Positions 44,268 to 47,707 of a DNA stretch of 64,000 nt are shown one piece after another. The number at the start of each line of letters is the position of its first letter. The stretch's first letter is position 1. Origin of the DNA: Spirochaetia bacterium (GTDB taxonomy: Bacteria; Spirochaetota; Spirochaetia; WTKD01; G963693115); contig CBDAKK010000008.1 of NCBI GenBank assembly GCA_965196605.1, positions 608,291 through 672,290 of the forward strand, in the 5' to 3' direction. Below the pieces are notes generated by a model that saw nothing but the letters and a program-made list of their open reading frames with translations, was not told where the DNA came from and did not search any database. Position numbers and translations under genes: made by a program.

Positions 44268-44684
44268 ATGTATTGTAAAAAAGTCATGCTAGCTGTAGTT
44301 GTAGCATGTGCTTTTGTGTTTGCCGTAACCTCATGCAACCCCGGCATAGCGGAGGTGCAAGACGCACAGTTACAGTTGCAAGAGGGCGCGGGCTTGCAGA
44401 CGCGCTACGCGCTACCCCTTGCGGGTGAGCGTGAGCTGCTGGGCTTAACGAAAAACGGGGATGGTACGCTGGACTACCGCATAGCGCGCAAGACGGCCAT
44501 TATTGAGTTTGAGACGGGCTACCGTGCGAGCCTCGACTGGCCAAAGGGCGTGAGGCTCTCAGAGCGCTCCGTGGTAGTCTACAATGCGGACTCGAAGCCC
44601 GAGATATATGAGTTTTTCGTGTTGCAAGAAGGGCGCCCTATTGGTACGGTGAGTGCGTATGCGCACACACCTACCCGGAGATAA
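44268..44684 (+). CDS. Lipoprotein signal plus probable pro-region of the downstream cysteine protease (separate frame)
   Basis: MYCKKVMLAVVVACAFVFAVTSC lipobox. Frame overlap of 44612-44684 with the next ORF suggests one frameshifted gene. Confidence 0.5.
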   Translation: MYCKKVMLAVVVACAFVFAVTSCNPGIAEVQDAQLQLQEGAGLQTRYALPLAGERELLGLTKNGDGTLDYRIARKTAIIEFETGYRASLDWPKGVRLSERSVVVYNADSKPEIYEFFVLQEGRPIGTVSAYAHTPTRR

Positions 44685-44692
44685 TACGCAAT

Positions 44693-45811
44693 GTGCTGCC
44701 CTTTGTGCGGGACTACAATCCCTACACCACCAAGTACGCGGGCTACAAGCAGGTGGCAGACTACTACCCCTTGAGCGTGTACGTGGGCGTGGTGAGCAAG
44801 AGTGGTAGTGAAGTGCGCAATGTCATAGACCCAAGCACGGGTAAACGCAAAGCGCCCCCGCGCGTGCCTAAACCTTCTGTAGAGCATAAGGAAATACAAG
44901 ACGCAAAGGCAGTTGCAAAAATCTACTGGAAGATAGTGCTGGAGCATGCGGACGAAATACTGAAGATGACCGATGAAGAGCTCTACGCCAAGTTGGAGAC
45001 GAAGGGGTATGAGTATAAGTATAAAGACCATACGTATATGCCGAAAAAGTTCGAATGGTTTGGGCATGCTTATAGAGAACCACTGGCTAGGACACGGTGG
45101 AATGGTTGGTGTGTGCCCAGTGCATTAGCAGGTTTGATTTGGGTAGTAAATGACCAATGGTATAAGGGATATTTGCCAAGAGTTGATGAGAGTAGCTTTC
45201 TTACAAAAAACTATCGTGAAAAAAATGGAAACACTGGATATTATGATTTTAATTGGAGTAATGATACGAAAAAAGATCGTATTAAAGCACGAAGTGCTAT
45301 AGCTGATAATGGGCTTTATTATGATCTTGTGAAATCATTTAATCTAAAAAGTGACTGGGATGGTGCCGTAAATATTCATACGGGAGCTATAGGAGTCGTA
45401 AAGGTTACTAATAATAAGATTGGCTATGTTGCATTGGGACCTGATGGACTTAACATGCACAACCACATCAAAAACCGTAAAGGGCCTGTAATAGATGGTA
45501 TTCGTACATCTAAAAAAGGTGGACATGCTAGATTACTTGTTGGTACGAAGTATTACTGGTATGAGCATTGGAACTGGTGGTACACTTACTATTGGTATAT
45601 AAAGCGCTGGTATTTAAAATGGGGTTGGCTGTGGACTGCCGAATGGGCGCAGGGTAGCAACTACTGGGAGACTTCCGTACTCTCAGGTGAATGGGGTACC
45701 AAGTTTCTCGTCTGGGATAATGGAAGTGATACTAAACCGTATGGATATGTTCCTTACTGGGAAAACAGTACAGCGGTTTCTCGTACAGATGCAATTGGTT
45801 TTACATATTGA
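44693..45811 (+). CDS. Clan CA (staphopain C47 / streptopain C10-like) cysteine peptidase with Trp/Tyr-rich C-terminal module
   Basis: RWNGWCVPSALAG (Cys context) and KKGGHARLLVG (His context) about 138 residues apart. Tail YYWYEHWNWWYTYYWYIKRWYLKWGWLW... This frame is open from 44612. Confidence 0.6.
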   Translation: MLPFVRDYNPYTTKYAGYKQVADYYPLSVYVGVVSKSGSEVRNVIDPSTGKRKAPPRVPKPSVEHKEIQDAKAVAKIYWKIVLEHADEILKMTDEELYAKLETKGYEYKYKDHTYMPKKFEWFGHAYREPLARTRWNGWCVPSALAGLIWVVNDQWYKGYLPRVDESSFLTKNYREKNGNTGYYDFNWSNDTKKDRIKARSAIADNGLYYDLVKSFNLKSDWDGAVNIHTGAIGVVKVTNNKIGYVALGPDGLNMHNHIKNRKGPVIDGIRTSKKGGHARLLVGTKYYWYEHWNWWYTYYWYIKRWYLKWGWLWTAEWAQGSNYWETSVLSGEWGTKFLVWDNGSDTKPYGYVPYWENSTAVSRTDAIGFTY

Positions 45812-45882
45812 TTATGTTTTGACAAATCTCATGGTGAGTTATTCAAACACTGTGAGAGTTCACTTAAGCTATGGAGAACACT

Positions 45883-46641
45883 ATGAATAAGTTAATAATT
45901 AGTATATATATAAGTTTGTCTTTAATTGTATTTTTACAAGATTGTGATTATGGGTTATCTGGACAGAAAGAATCATCTACTAAGACATTGACCACATTTA
46001 TTTTACAAGGCAGTATCGTAGATGGTAAAATAGTTATTAATCAAGAGGAAATATTTGCAAAAGATAATAAAAATGGTTTTGTTATAGAACAGATTGTTAA
46101 GTTTTTAGACTCATATAAGAAAGAAGATATTTACATAGGAAAAGTAAGTAATCGGTTTCGTGGTGCTAAGTCATCAAATTATTATTTTCCAAAACTTCAT
46201 AAGATATTAATCTCGAAGGATTTTCAGGGAACTATGTATATATTCACCAGTTTTTCATCTTATCATGATGCTGGTAGTTATACGAAGCGTGGGAATTTTT
46301 GGCGTGATTCAATATATGGTACGGCACTTGCAGACGCGCTAAAAAACACCCACAGCATAACCCACATGAGCAAAAATAAGGACTACCCCGTGGGAGCACA
46401 AAAACCTATAGTAGTTAACGGTGGCGCAAACCCCGATAGCGTGCGCGCGCTCATGCAAGCCGCAAAAGACGCAAAAGTGAAAGACCCGCGCTTGTTGGTG
46501 ATAAAACGCGGGGCGGGAGACACGCAAGTTACAATAACCGCCTTTGGGAAAGAGGAGAAAATAGATGCGGGCAAAACCTATGAGTGGAAGTTTGGTGAAG
46601 AGCATATCAAAGAACTACGCAAGTTTGTCGTGAAAAGGTAG
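45883..46641 (+). CDS. Putative lipoprotein, paralog 1 (candidate cognate partner of the protease)
   Basis: Hydrophobic N-terminus with Cys (FLQDC). 3' 370 nt nearly identical to 47340-47707. Confidence 0.6.
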   Translation: MNKLIISIYISLSLIVFLQDCDYGLSGQKESSTKTLTTFILQGSIVDGKIVINQEEIFAKDNKNGFVIEQIVKFLDSYKKEDIYIGKVSNRFRGAKSSNYYFPKLHKILISKDFQGTMYIFTSFSSYHDAGSYTKRGNFWRDSIYGTALADALKNTHSITHMSKNKDYPVGAQKPIVVNGGANPDSVRALMQAAKDAKVKDPRLLVIKRGAGDTQVTITAFGKEEKIDAGKTYEWKFGEEHIKELRKFVVKR

Positions 46642-46650
46642 GGGGTGTGT

Positions 46651-46878
46651 ATGACAAAACGCTGGTACTTAAAATGGGGCTGGCTGTGGACTGCAGAATG
46701 GGCGCAGGGTAGTCATTATTGGGAGACTTCTGTGCTCTCGGGAGAATGGGGTACCAAGTTTCTCGTCTGGGATAATGGAAGCGATACTGGTTCACACGGG
46801 TATGTTCCTTATTGGGAAAATAATACTGCCACTGCAAGTGTTCGTAAATGGAATGGTATTTGGGGATTGACGTATTAA
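46651..46878 (+). CDS. Free-standing 75-aa Trp-rich module, paralog of the protease C-terminus
   Basis: RBS AGGTAGGGGG, then ATG. 11 Trp residues. 46657-46788 aligns with 45602-45733 with about 13 mismatches, nearly all synonymous third positions. Confidence 0.55.
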   Translation: MTKRWYLKWGWLWTAEWAQGSHYWETSVLSGEWGTKFLVWDNGSDTGSHGYVPYWENNTATASVRKWNGIWGLTY

Positions 46879-46945
46879 TATCATTGATATCTTTAGAGCT
46901 ATGAAAATTCATAGCTCTAAAGATTGCATTAAGGAGATTGTTACC

Positions 46946-47707
46946 ATGTTAAAAAAATCTTTAATTTTACTATTGATAATTTTTTCAGTATTCATATATG
47001 GTTGTGATGATGATCGTGTGGGGCAAGCAGAGCCTAGCATAAATATATCGAATACACTTATTTTACAAGGACATATAAAAAAAGGAGATATAGGCATAAA
47101 CAAAAAAAATGTCTTTATCAAAGATACAACAAATGGCTTTAATATAAAACAGATTGTTAGTTTTTTAGACTCATACAAGATAGATGATATCTACGGAGGA
47201 AAAACAATAAATTATATTACAGGTGCACGTTTTTCAAATTATGACTATTTGCCAAAGCTACTTGAACCATATGAAATAACAATAGGTAATGATTTTGAAG
47301 GCACCGTACATGTTTTTATTACCTTCACATCTCGGTATAACGCTGGTAGTTATACGAAGCGTGGGAATTTTTGGCGTGATTCAACATATGGTACGGCACT
47401 GGCAGAAGCGCTAAAAAACACCCACAGCATAACCCACATGAGCAAAAATAAGGACTACCCCGTGGGAGCACAAAAACCTATAGTAGTTAGCGTTGGCGCA
47501 AACCCCGATAGCGTGCGCGCGCTCATGCAAGCGGCAAAGGCTACCAAAGACCCGCGCCTGTTGGTGATAGGGCGCACAAGCAGCACGGGCAAGGTGACAA
47601 TAACCGCCTTTGGCAAAGAAGAGAAGATAGATGCGGGCAAGACTTATGAGTGGAAGTTTGGCGAAGAGCAAATCAAAGCATTACGCAAGTTTGTCGTGAG
47701 GCGCTAG
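46946..47707 (+). CDS. Putative lipoprotein, paralog 2
   Basis: AAGGAG RBS. MLKKSLILLLIIFSVFIYGC lipobox. Paralog of 45883..46641. Confidence 0.65.
   Translation: MLKKSLILLLIIFSVFIYGCDDDRVGQAEPSINISNTLILQGHIKKGDIGINKKNVFIKDTTNGFNIKQIVSFLDSYKIDDIYGGKTINYITGARFSNYDYLPKLLEPYEITIGNDFEGTVHVFITFTSRYNAGSYTKRGNFWRDSTYGTALAEALKNTHSITHMSKNKDYPVGAQKPIVVSVGANPDSVRALMQAAKATKDPRLLVIGRTSSTGKVTITAFGKEEKIDAGKTYEWKFGEEQIKALRKFVVRR

What the first reader, a model, noticed from the sequence alone, without database searches (positions are those of the whole stretch)
44268..47707. Cysteine-protease cassette: staphopain/streptopain-like enzyme with an extreme Trp/Tyr tail, an orphan copy of that tail, and two lipoprotein paralogs
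Seen in sequence:
- 44693..45811 has RWNGWCVPSALAG and, about 138 residues later, KKGGHARLLVG. These are the Cys and His contexts I associate with clan CA C47/C10 peptidases (NGWC...; GHAxxxVG).
- The upstream ORF supplies a lipobox (AVTSC).
- The enzyme ends in YYWYEHWNWWYTYYWYIKRWYLKWGWLWTAEW....
- Gene order is protease, lipoprotein 1, free-standing 75-aa tail copy, lipoprotein 2.

Established knowledge: staphopains, streptopain and Bacteroides C10 proteases are encoded next to dedicated inhibitors. Polymorphic-toxin loci carry orphan C-terminal modules followed by immunity genes.

Inference: this locus mixes both patterns. I cannot assign the Trp-rich module or the lipoproteins to any named family, so it may be an undescribed protease/partner (inhibitor, immunity or anchoring) system.
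Basis: partly seen in the sequence, partly recalled or inferred. Interest (0 to 1): 0.72.

Follow-up and report, generated by a model that had tools for sequence, protein, structure and literature searches.

The report
Two-protease lipoprotein cassette, partly decayed
The region is a rearranged and partly broken copy of an unannotated four-gene cassette found in Bacteroidota and spirochaetes, which pairs a new papain-like cysteine enzyme and a clostripain-type (C11) protease with small partner lipoproteins; the "orphan tail" is the leftover edge of a 1-kb tandem duplication.

Summary

1. The lipobox ORF (44181-44684) and the "enzyme" ORF (44693-45811) are one roughly 530-aa lipoprotein gene, which I call X. 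A 1-nt deletion near 44669 splits it.
2. The Trp/Tyr-rich stretch is not a tail. It is an expanded hairpin insert between the catalytic His and an invariant Asp-Asn.
3. The orphan copy is the 5' edge of a 1,055-bp tandem duplication: 45601-46645 matches 46656-47711 at 74% nucleotide identity.

X has no Pfam, NCBIfam or PDB sequence match. It belongs to a family of about 185 cluster representatives with invariant W..C.P, D, H, DN and W residues. A structure model built on 34 homologues puts Cys140 at a helix N-terminus. Its fold matches are weak, but nearly all of the better ones are clan-CA cysteine peptidases (UfSP, IdeS, cathepsin L, C39, Josephin, AvrRpt2). None is C47 or C10.

In every related locus with downstream sequence, X is followed by one to three lipoprotein genes. 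In 10 distinct loci these are followed by a C11 peptidase gene and a roughly 100-aa lipoprotein gene. The window holds the same four gene types in rotated order, starting at 42075, outside the finding.

The function, an envelope protease pair with cognate partner lipoproteins, is inferred and not shown.

The parts
42075..43313 (+). C11 (clostripain-family) cysteine peptidase, lipoprotein (signal peptide ...LLVLFFAC). His motif WSHGTGW and Cys motif FDACYMG are intact.
   Evidence: Pfam PF03415, E 1.8e-43, 149.9 bits against a cutoff of 25.8. Closest solved structures are 6mzo and 6n9j, E 8e-30 and 1e-28; the printed 6mzo alignment has both motifs aligned. Relatives of this C11 sit in the same cassette in 10 distinct other loci.
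43301..43785 (.). Intergenic repeat elements inserted between the C11 and Lp100 genes. In the other loci the called C11 and Lp100 ORFs overlap.
   Evidence: blastn finds copies at 22321-22537, 47995-48430 and 62318-62965. The copy at 43395-43485 is inverted relative to 48298-48388, 83% identity over 92 nt.
43837..44172 (+). Lp100: small lipoprotein (lipobox LVLYGC), the conserved partner encoded just after the C11 gene.
   Evidence: Translation. The family HMM scores E 7e-38. Pairwise phmmer to the Lp100 genes of L010, L006, L011, L003 and L007 gives E 5e-8 to 1e-5. Alignment A9. No Pfam or PDB match.
44181..44684 (+). X, 5' part: signal peptide with lipobox AVTSC (likely start ATG 44268) and the conserved N-terminal domain. 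The frame ends because of the frameshift.
   Evidence: tblastn of P0002 residues 2-141 matches 44250-44669 at 84% identity. Alignment A1.
44669..44670 (+). Site of the 1-nt deletion (ACAACC to ACACC) that splits X.
   Evidence: Frame A reads ...AYAHTPTRR*. Frame B reads AHTYPEIIRNVLPFVRDY. The intact paralogue reads AHTTYPEIIRNVLPFVRDY.
44663..45811 (+). X, 3' part: linker plus the papain-like catalytic domain. Cys140 = 45110-45112, His278 = 45524-45526, Asp342-Asn343 = 45716-45721 (residues numbered from GTG 44693).
   Evidence: These residues are invariant in 34 homologues. AF2 model: pLDDT 77.7 overall and mostly above 90 in the core, with Cys at the N-terminus of helix 140-152, His at the start of strand 277-296, and Asp-Asn just after strand 324-341. 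Most of the better Foldseek hits are clan-CA peptidases, all at weak E-values.
45527..45715 (+). Trp/Tyr-rich insert between the catalytic His and the Asp-Asn: 63 residues, 13 W and 9 Y.
   Evidence: Insert lengths and W/Y counts for 34 family members. Residues 297-325 have pLDDT below 50. The insert is only 41 residues and Ser-rich in paralogue P0002.
45601..46645 (+). Tandem repeat unit 1: the 3' end of X, a spacer and the lipoprotein 1 gene.
   Evidence: blastn, 74% identity over 1,084 aligned columns against 46656-47711. The identity is mosaic.
45871..46641 (+). Lp256, copy 1: partner lipoprotein (likely start ATG 45883, lipobox-like VFLQDC).
   Evidence: The family has only three members, all from this genome. 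No Pfam or PDB match.
46645..46878 (+). Orphan fragment of X: the second half of the hairpin insert, the DNG strand and the C-terminus. It lacks the catalytic Cys and His.
   Evidence: Over 57 codons pS is 0.556 and pN is 0.048 (Fisher p 2.6e-10). It is in the same frame as Lp1, separated only by TAG 46639-46641.
46656..47711 (+). Tandem repeat unit 2: the orphan fragment, a spacer and the lipoprotein 2 gene.
46889..46924 (+). Perfect 16-bp hairpin between the orphan stop and the likely true start of lipoprotein 2.
   Evidence: Inverted repeat. RNA fold -25.1 kcal/mol, z -6.6.
46901..47707 (+). Lp256, copy 2 (268-aa ORF; likely start ATG 46946 after AAGGAG; lipobox FIYGC).
47734..47749 (+). 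Terminator-like hairpin after lipoprotein 2; possible end of the operon.
   Evidence: This is a consensus match only.

Best explanation
Window 42075-47749 holds one copy of a conserved, so far unannotated, cell-envelope cassette made of four kinds of lipoprotein.

1. X: a ~530-aa protein with a conserved N-terminal domain, a variable linker and a papain-like Cys-His-Asp/Asn catalytic domain.
2. One to three partner lipoprotein genes directly downstream of X. These belong to different, lineage-specific families: Lp170 in Bacteroidota and Lp256 in this genome.
3. A C11 clostripain-type peptidase.
4. Lp100: a ~100-aa lipoprotein whose called ORF overlaps the 3' end of the C11 gene in the other loci.

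The canonical order is X, Lp, C11, Lp100. In the window the order is rotated to C11, Lp100, X, Lp. A repeat element separates C11 from Lp100. X is broken by a 1-nt deletion. A 1,055-bp tandem duplication, with one breakpoint inside X, created a second partner gene and the orphan tail.

Inferred mechanism (not shown): both peptidases are lipid-anchored in the envelope or on the surface. Each is made together with a cognate small lipoprotein that binds it, most likely as an inhibitor or chaperone in the manner of staphostatin or Spi. By analogy with fragipain activating pro-toxins, the Arg/Lys-specific C11 enzyme may mature pro-X, possibly in its Lys/Arg-rich linker (KRKAPPRVPKPSVEHK). In this genome the X arm is probably inactive.
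For: One gene, frameshifted:
- Searches show the two ORFs are one gene.
- A related contig, L002, has the same gene broken at a different place and its C11 gene mostly deleted.
- An in-frame TAG in the lactate permease gene shows there is at least one other disrupted gene in this window.

Papain-like enzyme:
- C, H, D-N and W are invariant in 34 sequences.
- The secondary-structure context of those residues in a confident core model fits a papain-like site.
- Most of the better Foldseek PDB hits are clan-CA peptidases. The best is UfSP, E 0.013, probability 0.93.
- A sub-threshold profile match to the ComA C39 domain aligns both the Cys and the His motif.

Conserved cassette:
- X is followed within 60 nt or less by a lipoprotein gene in every locus that has downstream sequence: the window, L001-L019 and L021. 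L020 ends 54 nt after X, so it says nothing either way.
- C11 plus Lp100 follow in L003/L005, L006, L007, L010, L011, L012, L013, L016, L004/L018 and L021.
- These loci come from Flavobacteriia, Paludibacter, Prevotellaceae, Bacteroidales, Anaerophaga and a Spirochaetota MAG.

Tandem amplification of the partner recurs: three copies in L010 and L012, two in L013.

Duplication anatomy.

C11 lipoproteins as surface proteases that activate proteins: PMC11169675 and PMC8406203.
Against: - No structure or co-fold could be made for any partner lipoprotein, so binding and inhibition are pure inference.
- Foldseek E-values are all above 1e-3, and no coordinates were available to measure the Cys-His geometry.
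- Lp256 shows no detectable homology to Lp170 (hhalign probability below 10%), so 'same role' rests on gene position alone.
- Two divergent loci have X and a partner lipoprotein but no C11: L017 within its 10-kb downstream flank, L014 within its short (about 1.8-kb) one. C11 is therefore not obligatory.
- The frameshift could be an assembly error.
- The orphan fragment is conserved at the protein level, which a pure relic does not predict unless the truncation is recent.
Confidence: 0.6

Rival explanations
1. A C47/C10-type protease sits with dedicated inhibitor or immunity lipoproteins. The orphan tail plus lipoprotein 2 is a functional polymorphic-toxin-style cassette that can be recombined into the 3' end of X, switching the hairpin and the partner together. 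Alternatively, the orphan is translated as a 75-aa peptide.
For: - The orphan is under strong amino-acid constraint relative to the X tail: pS 0.556, pN 0.048, p 2.6e-10.
- It keeps an open frame to the same stop position despite a 12-nt insertion, and it has an SD-like GGTAGGGGG before ATG 46651.
- The repeat has conserved flanks (X tail 85% nt identity, lipoprotein C-terminal half 87%) around a variable centre (lipoprotein N-terminal half 63%).
- Paralogue P0002 differs mainly in the hairpin insert, and its genome-mate lipoprotein P0008 differs mainly in its N-terminal half.
- L011 has an X C-terminal remnant directly upstream of an extra Lp170 gene.
Against: - No match to C47, C10, I57 or I69 models.
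- The fragment is part of the catalytic core and is not an autonomous domain.
- High pS shows there has been no recent exchange between the two tail copies.
- The tandem partner arrays in L010, L012 and L013 carry no X fragments, so a fragment is not part of the general design.
- A recently truncated full-length paralogue would give the same low omega.
Confidence: 0.15
2. The downstream lipoproteins are substrates or cargo, not inhibitors. X and/or C11 clip them from their lipid anchors to release them, either as secretome shedding or as activation of secreted effectors. Tandem copies would be multiple cargo genes, as in bacteriocin loci with a C39 processing peptidase.
For: - C11 lipoproteins of Bacteroidales are surface-exposed and cleave or activate other proteins (PMC11169675; PMC8406203).
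- X's closest profile-level neighbour is the C39 leader-peptide peptidase. In my own knowledge, such loci often carry tandem substrate genes.
- The partner genes are amplified one to three times and are lineage-specific.
- Lp170 shows Cys at several aligned positions, which would suit a stable secreted protein (alignment).
Against: - No cleavage motif was identified.
- Tight 1:1 coupling of gene pairs, with the called C11 and Lp100 ORFs overlapping, is more typical of enzyme-binder pairs.
- Nothing was tested directly.
Confidence: 0.2
3. X is not a peptidase. It uses a papain-like or CHAP/NlpC-type Cys-His-Asp triad for another reaction, such as peptidoglycan amidase, transglutaminase, deamidase or acyltransferase, and the downstream lipoprotein is its periplasmic immunity or regulatory partner.
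For: - Fold matches are weak (all E > 0.01), and the viral library returns phage 'lysozyme' entries alongside cysteine proteases.
- Cys-His-Asp/Asn on this fold supports many chemistries (established knowledge).
- A lipoprotein location is compatible with a periplasmic cell-wall enzyme.
Against: - Most of the better PDB fold hits are peptidases or isopeptidases, none of them NlpC/P60 or transglutaminases.
- No Pfam CHAP, NlpC_P60 or Transglut_core hit in 30 members at E<=0.1.
- Constant linkage to a second protease suggests a proteolytic pathway.
Confidence: 0.15
4. In this genome the locus is simply a decaying relic. X is a pseudogene, the orphan is junk from a duplication, and only C11, Lp100 and perhaps the lipoproteins are still expressed.
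For: - The frameshift in X.
- Independent disruption of X and deletion of C11 in the related contig L002.
- A nonsense codon in the nearby lactate permease gene.
- A repeat element inserted between C11 and Lp100.
- X subfamily and Lp256 relatives are almost absent from very large databases.
Against: - All catalytic residues of X are intact.
- The lipoprotein genes and the orphan keep open frames, with omega 0.05-0.37.
- A second intact X paralogue (P0002) and a third Lp paralogue (P0008) exist in the same genome.
- The single-base frameshift could be a sequencing error.
Confidence: 0.5

Closest known systems
Cysteine protease-inhibitor operons: staphopain-staphostatin (C47/I57), streptopain-Spi (C10/I69) and Bacteroides C10 proteases with their adjacent small inhibitor lipoproteins
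   Same: A papain-like Cys-His enzyme made with an N-terminal pro-like region and encoded directly upstream of a small, tightly coupled partner gene. In Bacteroides both are lipoproteins (own knowledge).
   Different: No sequence or profile match to C47, C10, I57 or I69. The partner families are different and lineage-specific. There can be up to three tandem partner copies. A second protease (C11) with its own small partner belongs to the same cassette.
C39 bacteriocin-processing peptidase domains (ComA PEP domain 3k8u/5xe8; PCAT1)
   Same: This is the only profile-level neighbour. The Cys motif (CGPSA.A) and the His motif (H..VA.G) align in the right order. PCAT1 appears among the fold hits.
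   Different: The match is sub-threshold (E 0.16). X is a free lipoprotein, not the N-terminal domain of an ABC transporter. X is about three times larger, with an added N-terminal domain and a 16-63-residue insert between His and Asp.
Surface C11 lipoprotein proteases of Bacteroidales (fragipain, DpnA/DpnB, PmC11, the B. thetaiotaomicron C11 enzymes)
   Same: The window's 42075-43313 product is a bona fide C11 lipoprotein with an intact His/Cys dyad. Fragipain and DpnB cleave and activate other proteins, fragipain on pro-BFT and both on CDCL toxins (PMC8406203, PMC11169675).
   Different: No conserved linkage of those enzymes to a papain-like partner or to an Lp100-type gene is described in the papers I could search. 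Activation of X by C11 is my inference.
Dentilisin complex of Treponema denticola (PrcB-PrcA-PrtP), from own knowledge
   Same: A spirochaete operon encoding a lipoprotein protease together with accessory lipoproteins that assemble into a surface protease complex.
   Different: Dentilisin is a subtilisin-type serine protease. There is no sequence relation to X or its partners, and a scaffold role for Lp256 or Lp100 has not been tested.
Polymorphic toxin loci (CDI/Rhs) with orphan C-terminal modules followed by immunity genes (PMC3482391)
   Same: A 3' gene fragment followed by a paralogue of the downstream partner gene, with conserved flanks around a variable centre.
   Different: The fragment is a piece of the catalytic core, not a self-contained toxin domain. 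X has its own lipoprotein signal peptide and no trafficking domain. A simple tandem duplication explains the structure.
Structural neighbours: UfSP (C78), IdeS/IdeC/Mac-1 (C66), cathepsin L (C1), Josephin (C86), AvrRpt2 (C70)
   Same: They share the papain-like core with a nucleophile Cys at a helix N-terminus and a His on a beta-strand.
   Different: All matches have E >= 0.013 and TM <= 0.25 over the whole model, so no specific family relationship can be claimed.

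Membership tests
Clan CA (papain-like) cysteine peptidases | Catalytic residues in the order Cys ... His ... Asn/Asp, conserved across the family | tested here: met
   C140, H278 and D342-N343 are invariant in 34 homologues of 19-65% identity.
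Clan CA (papain-like) cysteine peptidases | Nucleophile Cys at the N-terminus of an alpha-helix; His and Asn/Asp on adjacent beta-strands of the second lobe | tested here: met
   In the AF2 model the helix starts at residue 140, His278 begins strand 277-296, and D342-N343 directly follow strand 324-341. Core pLDDT is mostly above 90. No coordinates were available to measure distances.
Clan CA (papain-like) cysteine peptidases | Significant structural similarity to solved members | tested here: inconclusive
   Most of the better Foldseek PDB hits are clan-CA peptidases, but the best E-value is 0.013 and none reaches 1e-3.
Peptidase C47 (staphopain) / C10 (streptopain) | Match to the family profile (Pfam Peptidase_C47 or Peptidase_C10), or to solved members by sequence or fold | tested here: not met
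   No such Pfam hit at E<=1 for the window protein, and none at E<=0.1 in 30 relatives. No PDB sequence hit. Neither staphopain nor SpeB appears in the fold list.
Peptidase C39 | Match to the C39 profile or structures above threshold | tested here: inconclusive
   The profile of 30 sequences hits the ComA peptidase domain at E 0.16-0.18 with the Cys and His motifs aligned. PCAT1 fold hits have E 0.2-0.35. There is no Pfam C39 hit.
Peptidase C11 (clostripain family), for the upstream gene 42075-43313 | Pfam PF03415 above the gathering score, with the His-Cys dyad present | tested here: met
   149.9 bits against a cutoff of 25.8. WSHGTGW and FDACYM align to the solved C11 zymogen 6mzo.
Bacterial lipoproteins (all components) | N-terminal signal peptide ending in a lipobox Cys | tested here: met
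   By inspection and pattern search: C11 ...LFFAC, Lp100 ...LYGC, X ...AVTSC, Lp1 ...FLQDC (atypical), Lp2 ...FIYGC. The same feature appears in nearly all cassette genes of the related loci. No dedicated predictor was run.
Protease inhibitor families I57 (staphostatin) / I69 (Spi) | Profile match of the partner proteins | tested here: not met
   No Pfam hits for Lp256, Lp100 or Lp170 beyond noise. No PDB profile hits for Lp100 or Lp256.
Polymorphic toxin systems | A variable, self-contained C-terminal toxin domain with a cognate immunity gene, plus orphan CT-immunity cassettes | tested here: not met
   A fragment followed by a partner-gene paralogue exists. However, the fragment begins inside the His-Asp insert and carries core residues (D342, N343, W356), so it is not an autonomous domain. 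The structure equals a 1,055-bp tandem duplication.
Enzyme-partner physical interaction (X with Lp256; C11 with Lp100) | Predicted or measured contact | not testable with these tools

The most novel reading that the evidence does not exclude
X and its downstream lipoprotein form a polymorphic, co-varying enzyme-partner pair on the cell surface. The variable His-Asp hairpin of X (Trp-rich here, Ser-rich in the paralogue) is the specificity element, matched to the hypervariable N-terminal half of the partner. Orphan '3'-end plus partner' cassettes such as 46645-47707 are kept as functional switching or donor modules. The linked C11 protease is the activator. This would be a lipoprotein-anchored, protease-activated analogue of toxin-immunity systems, shared by Bacteroidota and spirochaetes.
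Probability: 0.12. Interest if true: 0.8.

Novelty: new variant of a known kind. Interest (0 to 1): 0.52.

Why it matters
If the reading holds, this defines three things:

- a new papain-like enzyme family: about 185 cluster representatives at 50% identity, with no Pfam or NCBIfam model;
- two or more new families of small partner lipoproteins;
- an unreported, cross-phylum genetic linkage between that enzyme and C11 clostripain-type surface proteases.

C11 lipoproteins are already known to process surface proteins and activate toxins in gut Bacteroidales. A dedicated partner enzyme and possible dedicated inhibitors would add components to that pathway, and would offer candidate natural C11 inhibitors.

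For this genome, the locus also illustrates gene decay and duplication in a spirochaete.

Tried and rejected
**Searches that found nothing**
- Single-sequence and 4-sequence profile searches of X against PDB sequences found nothing.
- AF2 of paralogue P0002 with only 4 sequences failed, pLDDT 32. It worked only after adding distant relatives.
- The word-index homologue search found only 5 X relatives and 3 Lp256 relatives. Repeating it with the 30-sequence profile added none.
- The genome-contig scan with the close-subfamily alignment found nothing, and a 28-sequence alignment was too diverse to make patterns. An 11-sequence alignment worked.
- Metagenome scans with the X subfamily and with Lp256 both found nothing.
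- Exact look-ups of P0002 and P0008 found no contig, so I could not check whether the second X paralogue sits next to the third lipoprotein paralogue.
- No match in PADLOC, NCBIfam or Rfam.
- The BFVD fold search was uninformative.
- Literature searches found no description of this cassette.

**Ideas considered and rejected**
- Lp256 as a remote homologue of Lp170, the L004 258-aa or 161-aa proteins, or Lp100. hhalign probabilities are below 30%, and the aligned stretches fall mainly in the N-terminal signal-peptide regions.
- Programmed -1 frameshifting at 44669. There is no slippery heptamer, and the product would simply equal the sequence before the deletion.
- Recent gene conversion as the cause of the orphan's conservation. 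pS of 0.56 rules it out.
- The orphan as an allele imported from an L002-like strain. It is closer to the window's own X tail (85% nt) than to L002's (81%).

Full report
**1. Checking the observation**

ORF listing confirms every element at the stated positions:
- a 167-aa ORF (44181-44684) with a signal peptide and the lipobox AVTSC;
- a 372-aa ORF (44693-45811) with RWNGWCVPSALAG (Cys140) and KKGGHARLLVG (His278), 138 residues apart;
- the very Trp/Tyr-rich stretch;
- a 256-aa lipoprotein (45871-46641);
- a 77-aa ORF (46645-46878) that repeats the end of the enzyme;
- a 268-aa lipoprotein (46901-47707).

The two lipoproteins are 68% identical, E 1e-113. The orphan matches enzyme residues 303-363 at 87% identity.

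**2. One gene, frameshifted**

The word-index homologue search found only four relatives of the enzyme. Two are intact lipoproteins: P0002 (528 aa, same 1.14-Mb contig but outside the window) and P0004 (525 aa).

- tblastn aligns P0002 residues 2-141 to 44250-44669 in one frame and residues 139-528 to 44663-45808 in another.
- The DNA reads GCGCACACACCTACCCGG. Frame A gives AYAHTPTRR*. Frame B gives AHTYPEII. The intact paralogue has AHTTYPEII. One base is therefore missing at about 44669/44670.
- The "upstream ORF that supplies a lipobox" is thus the N-terminus of the same protein, which I call X.

The other two relatives, P0003 and P0005, are the two halves of the same gene on the 2.5-kb contig L002 and are split at a different place. 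On that contig the N-terminus of a C11 peptidase is fused by deletion to the C-terminus of a small lipoprotein. Nearby in the window a lactate permease gene carries an in-frame TAG. Real decay of the locus in this lineage is therefore plausible, although I cannot exclude an assembly error for the single-base frameshift.

**3. The "tail" and its orphan copy**

Alignment of the subfamily and of 34 family members shows that the W/Y-rich stretch lies between the invariant His278 and an invariant Asp342-Asn343. A conserved PYW follows.

The His-to-Asp spacing is 16-63 residues across the family, typically 41. In the window subfamily it is 63, with 13 Trp and 9 Tyr. In paralogue P0002 it is 41 and Ser-rich. 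The stretch is an expanded internal hairpin, not a tail.

At the DNA level 45601-46645 and 46656-47711 are tandem repeat units, 74% identical over 1,084 aligned columns. Each unit holds the X 3' end (or the orphan), a spacer and a lipoprotein gene. The orphan is therefore the 5' edge of unit 2.

Identity along the repeat is mosaic:

| Segment | Nucleotide identity |
|---|---|
| X tail | 85% |
| Lipoprotein N-terminal half | 63% |
| Lipoprotein C-terminal half | 87% |

The spacer between the X tail and the lipoprotein gene is also visibly diverged, and the C-terminal half includes a stretch of roughly 150 nt that is nearly identical between the copies.

Nei-Gojobori counts for 57 tail codons give pS 0.556 and pN 0.048 (18 synonymous and 7 non-synonymous differences; Fisher p 2.6e-10). 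The fragment has therefore been constrained as protein for most of its history. That fits a recently truncated full-length paralogue, or a fragment that is still translated. It is in frame with lipoprotein 1, behind a single TAG, and ATG 46651 has an SD-like GGTAGGGGG before it. I cannot choose between these readings. The orphan is closer to the window's own X tail (85% nt) than to L002's (81%).

**4. What X is**

No Pfam or NCBIfam model matches X, and a single-sequence search of PDB sequences finds nothing. The same holds for 30 relatives scanned against Pfam and 11 scanned against NCBIfam.

An exhaustive profile search of 1.84 billion cluster representatives found 185 proteins at E<=1e-3. 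Most are 450-550 aa with a lipoprotein signal peptide.

A profile of 30 sequences gives only a sub-threshold match (E 0.16) to the C39 peptidase domain of ComA, but it aligns both the Cys and the His motif.

AF2 with 4 sequences failed. With 34 sequences it gave mean pLDDT 77.7, mostly above 90 in the catalytic core and below 50 in the W-rich hairpin. In this model:
- Cys140 is the first residue of a helix;
- His278 starts a long strand;
- Asp342-Asn343 follow the next long strand.

Foldseek against the PDB gave no hit at E<=1e-3. The best-scoring and best-supported matches are nevertheless almost all clan-CA cysteine peptidases: UfSP (E 0.013, probability 0.93), IdeC/IdeS/Mac-1, cathepsin L, PCAT1 (C39), Josephin-type enzymes and AvrRpt2. 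Neither staphopain nor streptopain appears.

I conclude that X is very probably a papain-like Cys-His-Asp/Asn hydrolase of a family without a public model, and that it is not a member of C47 or C10.

**5. The conserved neighbourhood**

I fetched contigs for distant members and ran a scan of GTDB species genomes, which returned 14 loci from Flavobacteriia, Paludibacter, Prevotellaceae, other Bacteroidales, Anaerophaga thermohalophila and a Spirochaetota MAG. ORF calling plus phmmer/hmmsearch with seeds from the window and from L003/L004 gives one recurring arrangement:
- X;
- one to three lipoprotein genes, starting within 34 nt of the X stop or overlapping it. These are "Lp170" in Bacteroidota (three tandem copies in L010 and L012, two in L013) and unrelated lipoproteins in the Spirochaetota MAG and in L021;
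- a C11 clostripain-family lipoprotein;
- "Lp100", a ~100-aa lipoprotein whose called ORF overlaps the end of the C11 gene.

C11 plus Lp100 are present in L003/L005, L006, L007, L010, L011, L012, L013, L016, L004/L018 and L021. They are absent from L017 within its 10-kb downstream flank and from L014 within its short (about 1.8-kb) one; both still have X plus a lipoprotein.

The window has the same four gene types in rotated order:

| Gene | Window coordinates | Evidence |
|---|---|---|
| C11 | 42075-43313 | Pfam E 1.8e-43; dyad motifs aligned to solved C11 6mzo |
| Lp100 | 43837-44172 | family HMM E 7e-38; alignment A9 |
| X | 44181-45811 | sections 2-4 |
| Lp256, two copies | 45871-46641 and 46901-47707 | |

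A member of an intergenic repeat family lies between C11 and Lp100. Inverted copies of it bracket the Lp100-X-Lp block.

Close relatives keep the rule. L002 has X followed by a lipoprotein ORF with the same signal peptide and spacer DNA but a different mature N-terminus. L001 has a lipoprotein signal peptide starting 107 nt after X.

Lp256 has only three members, all in this genome. It shows no detectable homology to Lp170 or Lp100. None of the partner families has a Pfam match, and profile searches of PDB sequences with Lp100 and Lp256 found nothing.

**6. How it probably works**

Shown:
- four lipoproteins encoded in a tightly packed, co-oriented unit;
- two of them are cysteine hydrolases with intact active-site residues;
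- the partner genes are lineage-specific and prone to tandem amplification.

Inferred:
- The products act together in the envelope or on the surface.
- Each protease is paired with a cognate binder. An inhibitor or chaperone role is the best analogy, as in staphopain-staphostatin, SpeB-Spi and the Bacteroides C10 systems (own knowledge).
- The C11 enzyme may mature pro-X, as fragipain matures pro-BFT (PMC8406203) and as fragipain and DpnB cleave the CDCL toxins (PMC11169675). The window's X linker is Lys/Arg-rich.

Rival readings are given with their refuting tests in the Rival explanations section:
- the partners are shed cargo or substrates;
- they are scaffold subunits, as in the dentilisin complex;
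- X has a non-peptidase chemistry;
- the orphan is a polymorphic switching cassette.

**7. Origin, novelty and verdict**

A SpiroCoCo-type coiled-coil protein points to a spirochaete chromosome; strong GC skew and gene content are compatible with that. The genome itself is not in the GTDB representative set that was searched.

The clan-level protease call and the "protease with partner lipoproteins" idea hold. The C47/C10 label and the "tail module" idea do not.

The main addition is that the locus belongs to a conserved cassette, spread across phyla and unannotated, that also contains the C11 gene outside the reported coordinates. In the window, the X gene of this cassette is disrupted.

I rate it a new variant of a known kind (protease-partner operons) and of moderate interest.

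Noticed in passing
window 36347-38038 (+): An L-lactate permease gene is interrupted by an in-frame TAG at 37448-37450. Pfam matches the two halves to profile positions 3-304 and 358-521. It is probably a pseudogene, which points to gene decay in this genome.
   Followed up: partly
window 43301-43785, 47995-48430, 22321-22537, 62318-62965: A family of intergenic repeat elements, 77-93% identical over pieces of 28-116 nt. Copies 43395-43485 and 48298-48388 are inverted and bracket the Lp100-X-Lp256 block. One copy separates C11 from Lp100, whose called ORFs overlap in the other loci.
   Followed up: partly
window 46889-46924 (+): A perfect 16-bp stem-loop (-25 kcal/mol, z -6.6) lies between the orphan ORF and the likely true start of lipoprotein 2 (ATG 46946). 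It has no T-run and no counterpart in repeat unit 1.
   Followed up: partly
window 46639-46657 (+): Lipoprotein 1 and the orphan fragment are in the same reading frame, separated only by one TAG (...VVKR*GVCMTKRWYLKWG...). Read-through would fuse them. This may be coincidence.
   Followed up: no
window 18921-22304 (+): A 1,127-aa coiled-coil protein matches the NCBIfam SpiroCoCo C-terminal domain (E 2.5e-22, below the curated cutoff). This points to a spirochaete origin for the window.
   Followed up: no
window 53617-55695 (-) and 56242-58314 (-): Two paralogous dCache-sensor adenylate/guanylate cyclases lie side by side in markedly AT-rich DNA (GC 0.32-0.35, against 0.45-0.54 in neighbouring 2-kb windows).
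   Followed up: no
L002 234-518 and 683-2183 (Logan SRR30948333): This is a related organism's copy of the locus. The C11 N-terminus is fused by deletion to the Lp100 C-terminus. X is split at a different site from the window's and lacks its signal peptide. A lipoprotein ORF follows, with the window Lp1 signal peptide but a different mature sequence.
   Followed up: yes
L011 1564-1809 and 1832-2449 (Prevotellaceae MAG): A degenerate X C-terminal remnant (..FHNGN..YLPYW..VVKK) sits directly upstream of an extra Lp170 gene, about 1.4 kb upstream of the intact X. It is a weak parallel to the window's orphan-plus-lipoprotein unit (E 0.003).
   Followed up: partly
P0002 vs window 44250-44669: The N-terminal region of the second X paralogue in this genome is 84% identical to the window's (residues 2-141), while the rest of the protein, including the catalytic part, is 56% identical. 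The paralogues are therefore mosaic, which suggests recombination or gene conversion between the loci.
   Followed up: no
L010 10040-11607; L021 7011-8223: In two MAG loci a cassette gene is split: X in L010 and C11 in L021. These may be assembly errors or further examples of decay.
   Followed up: no
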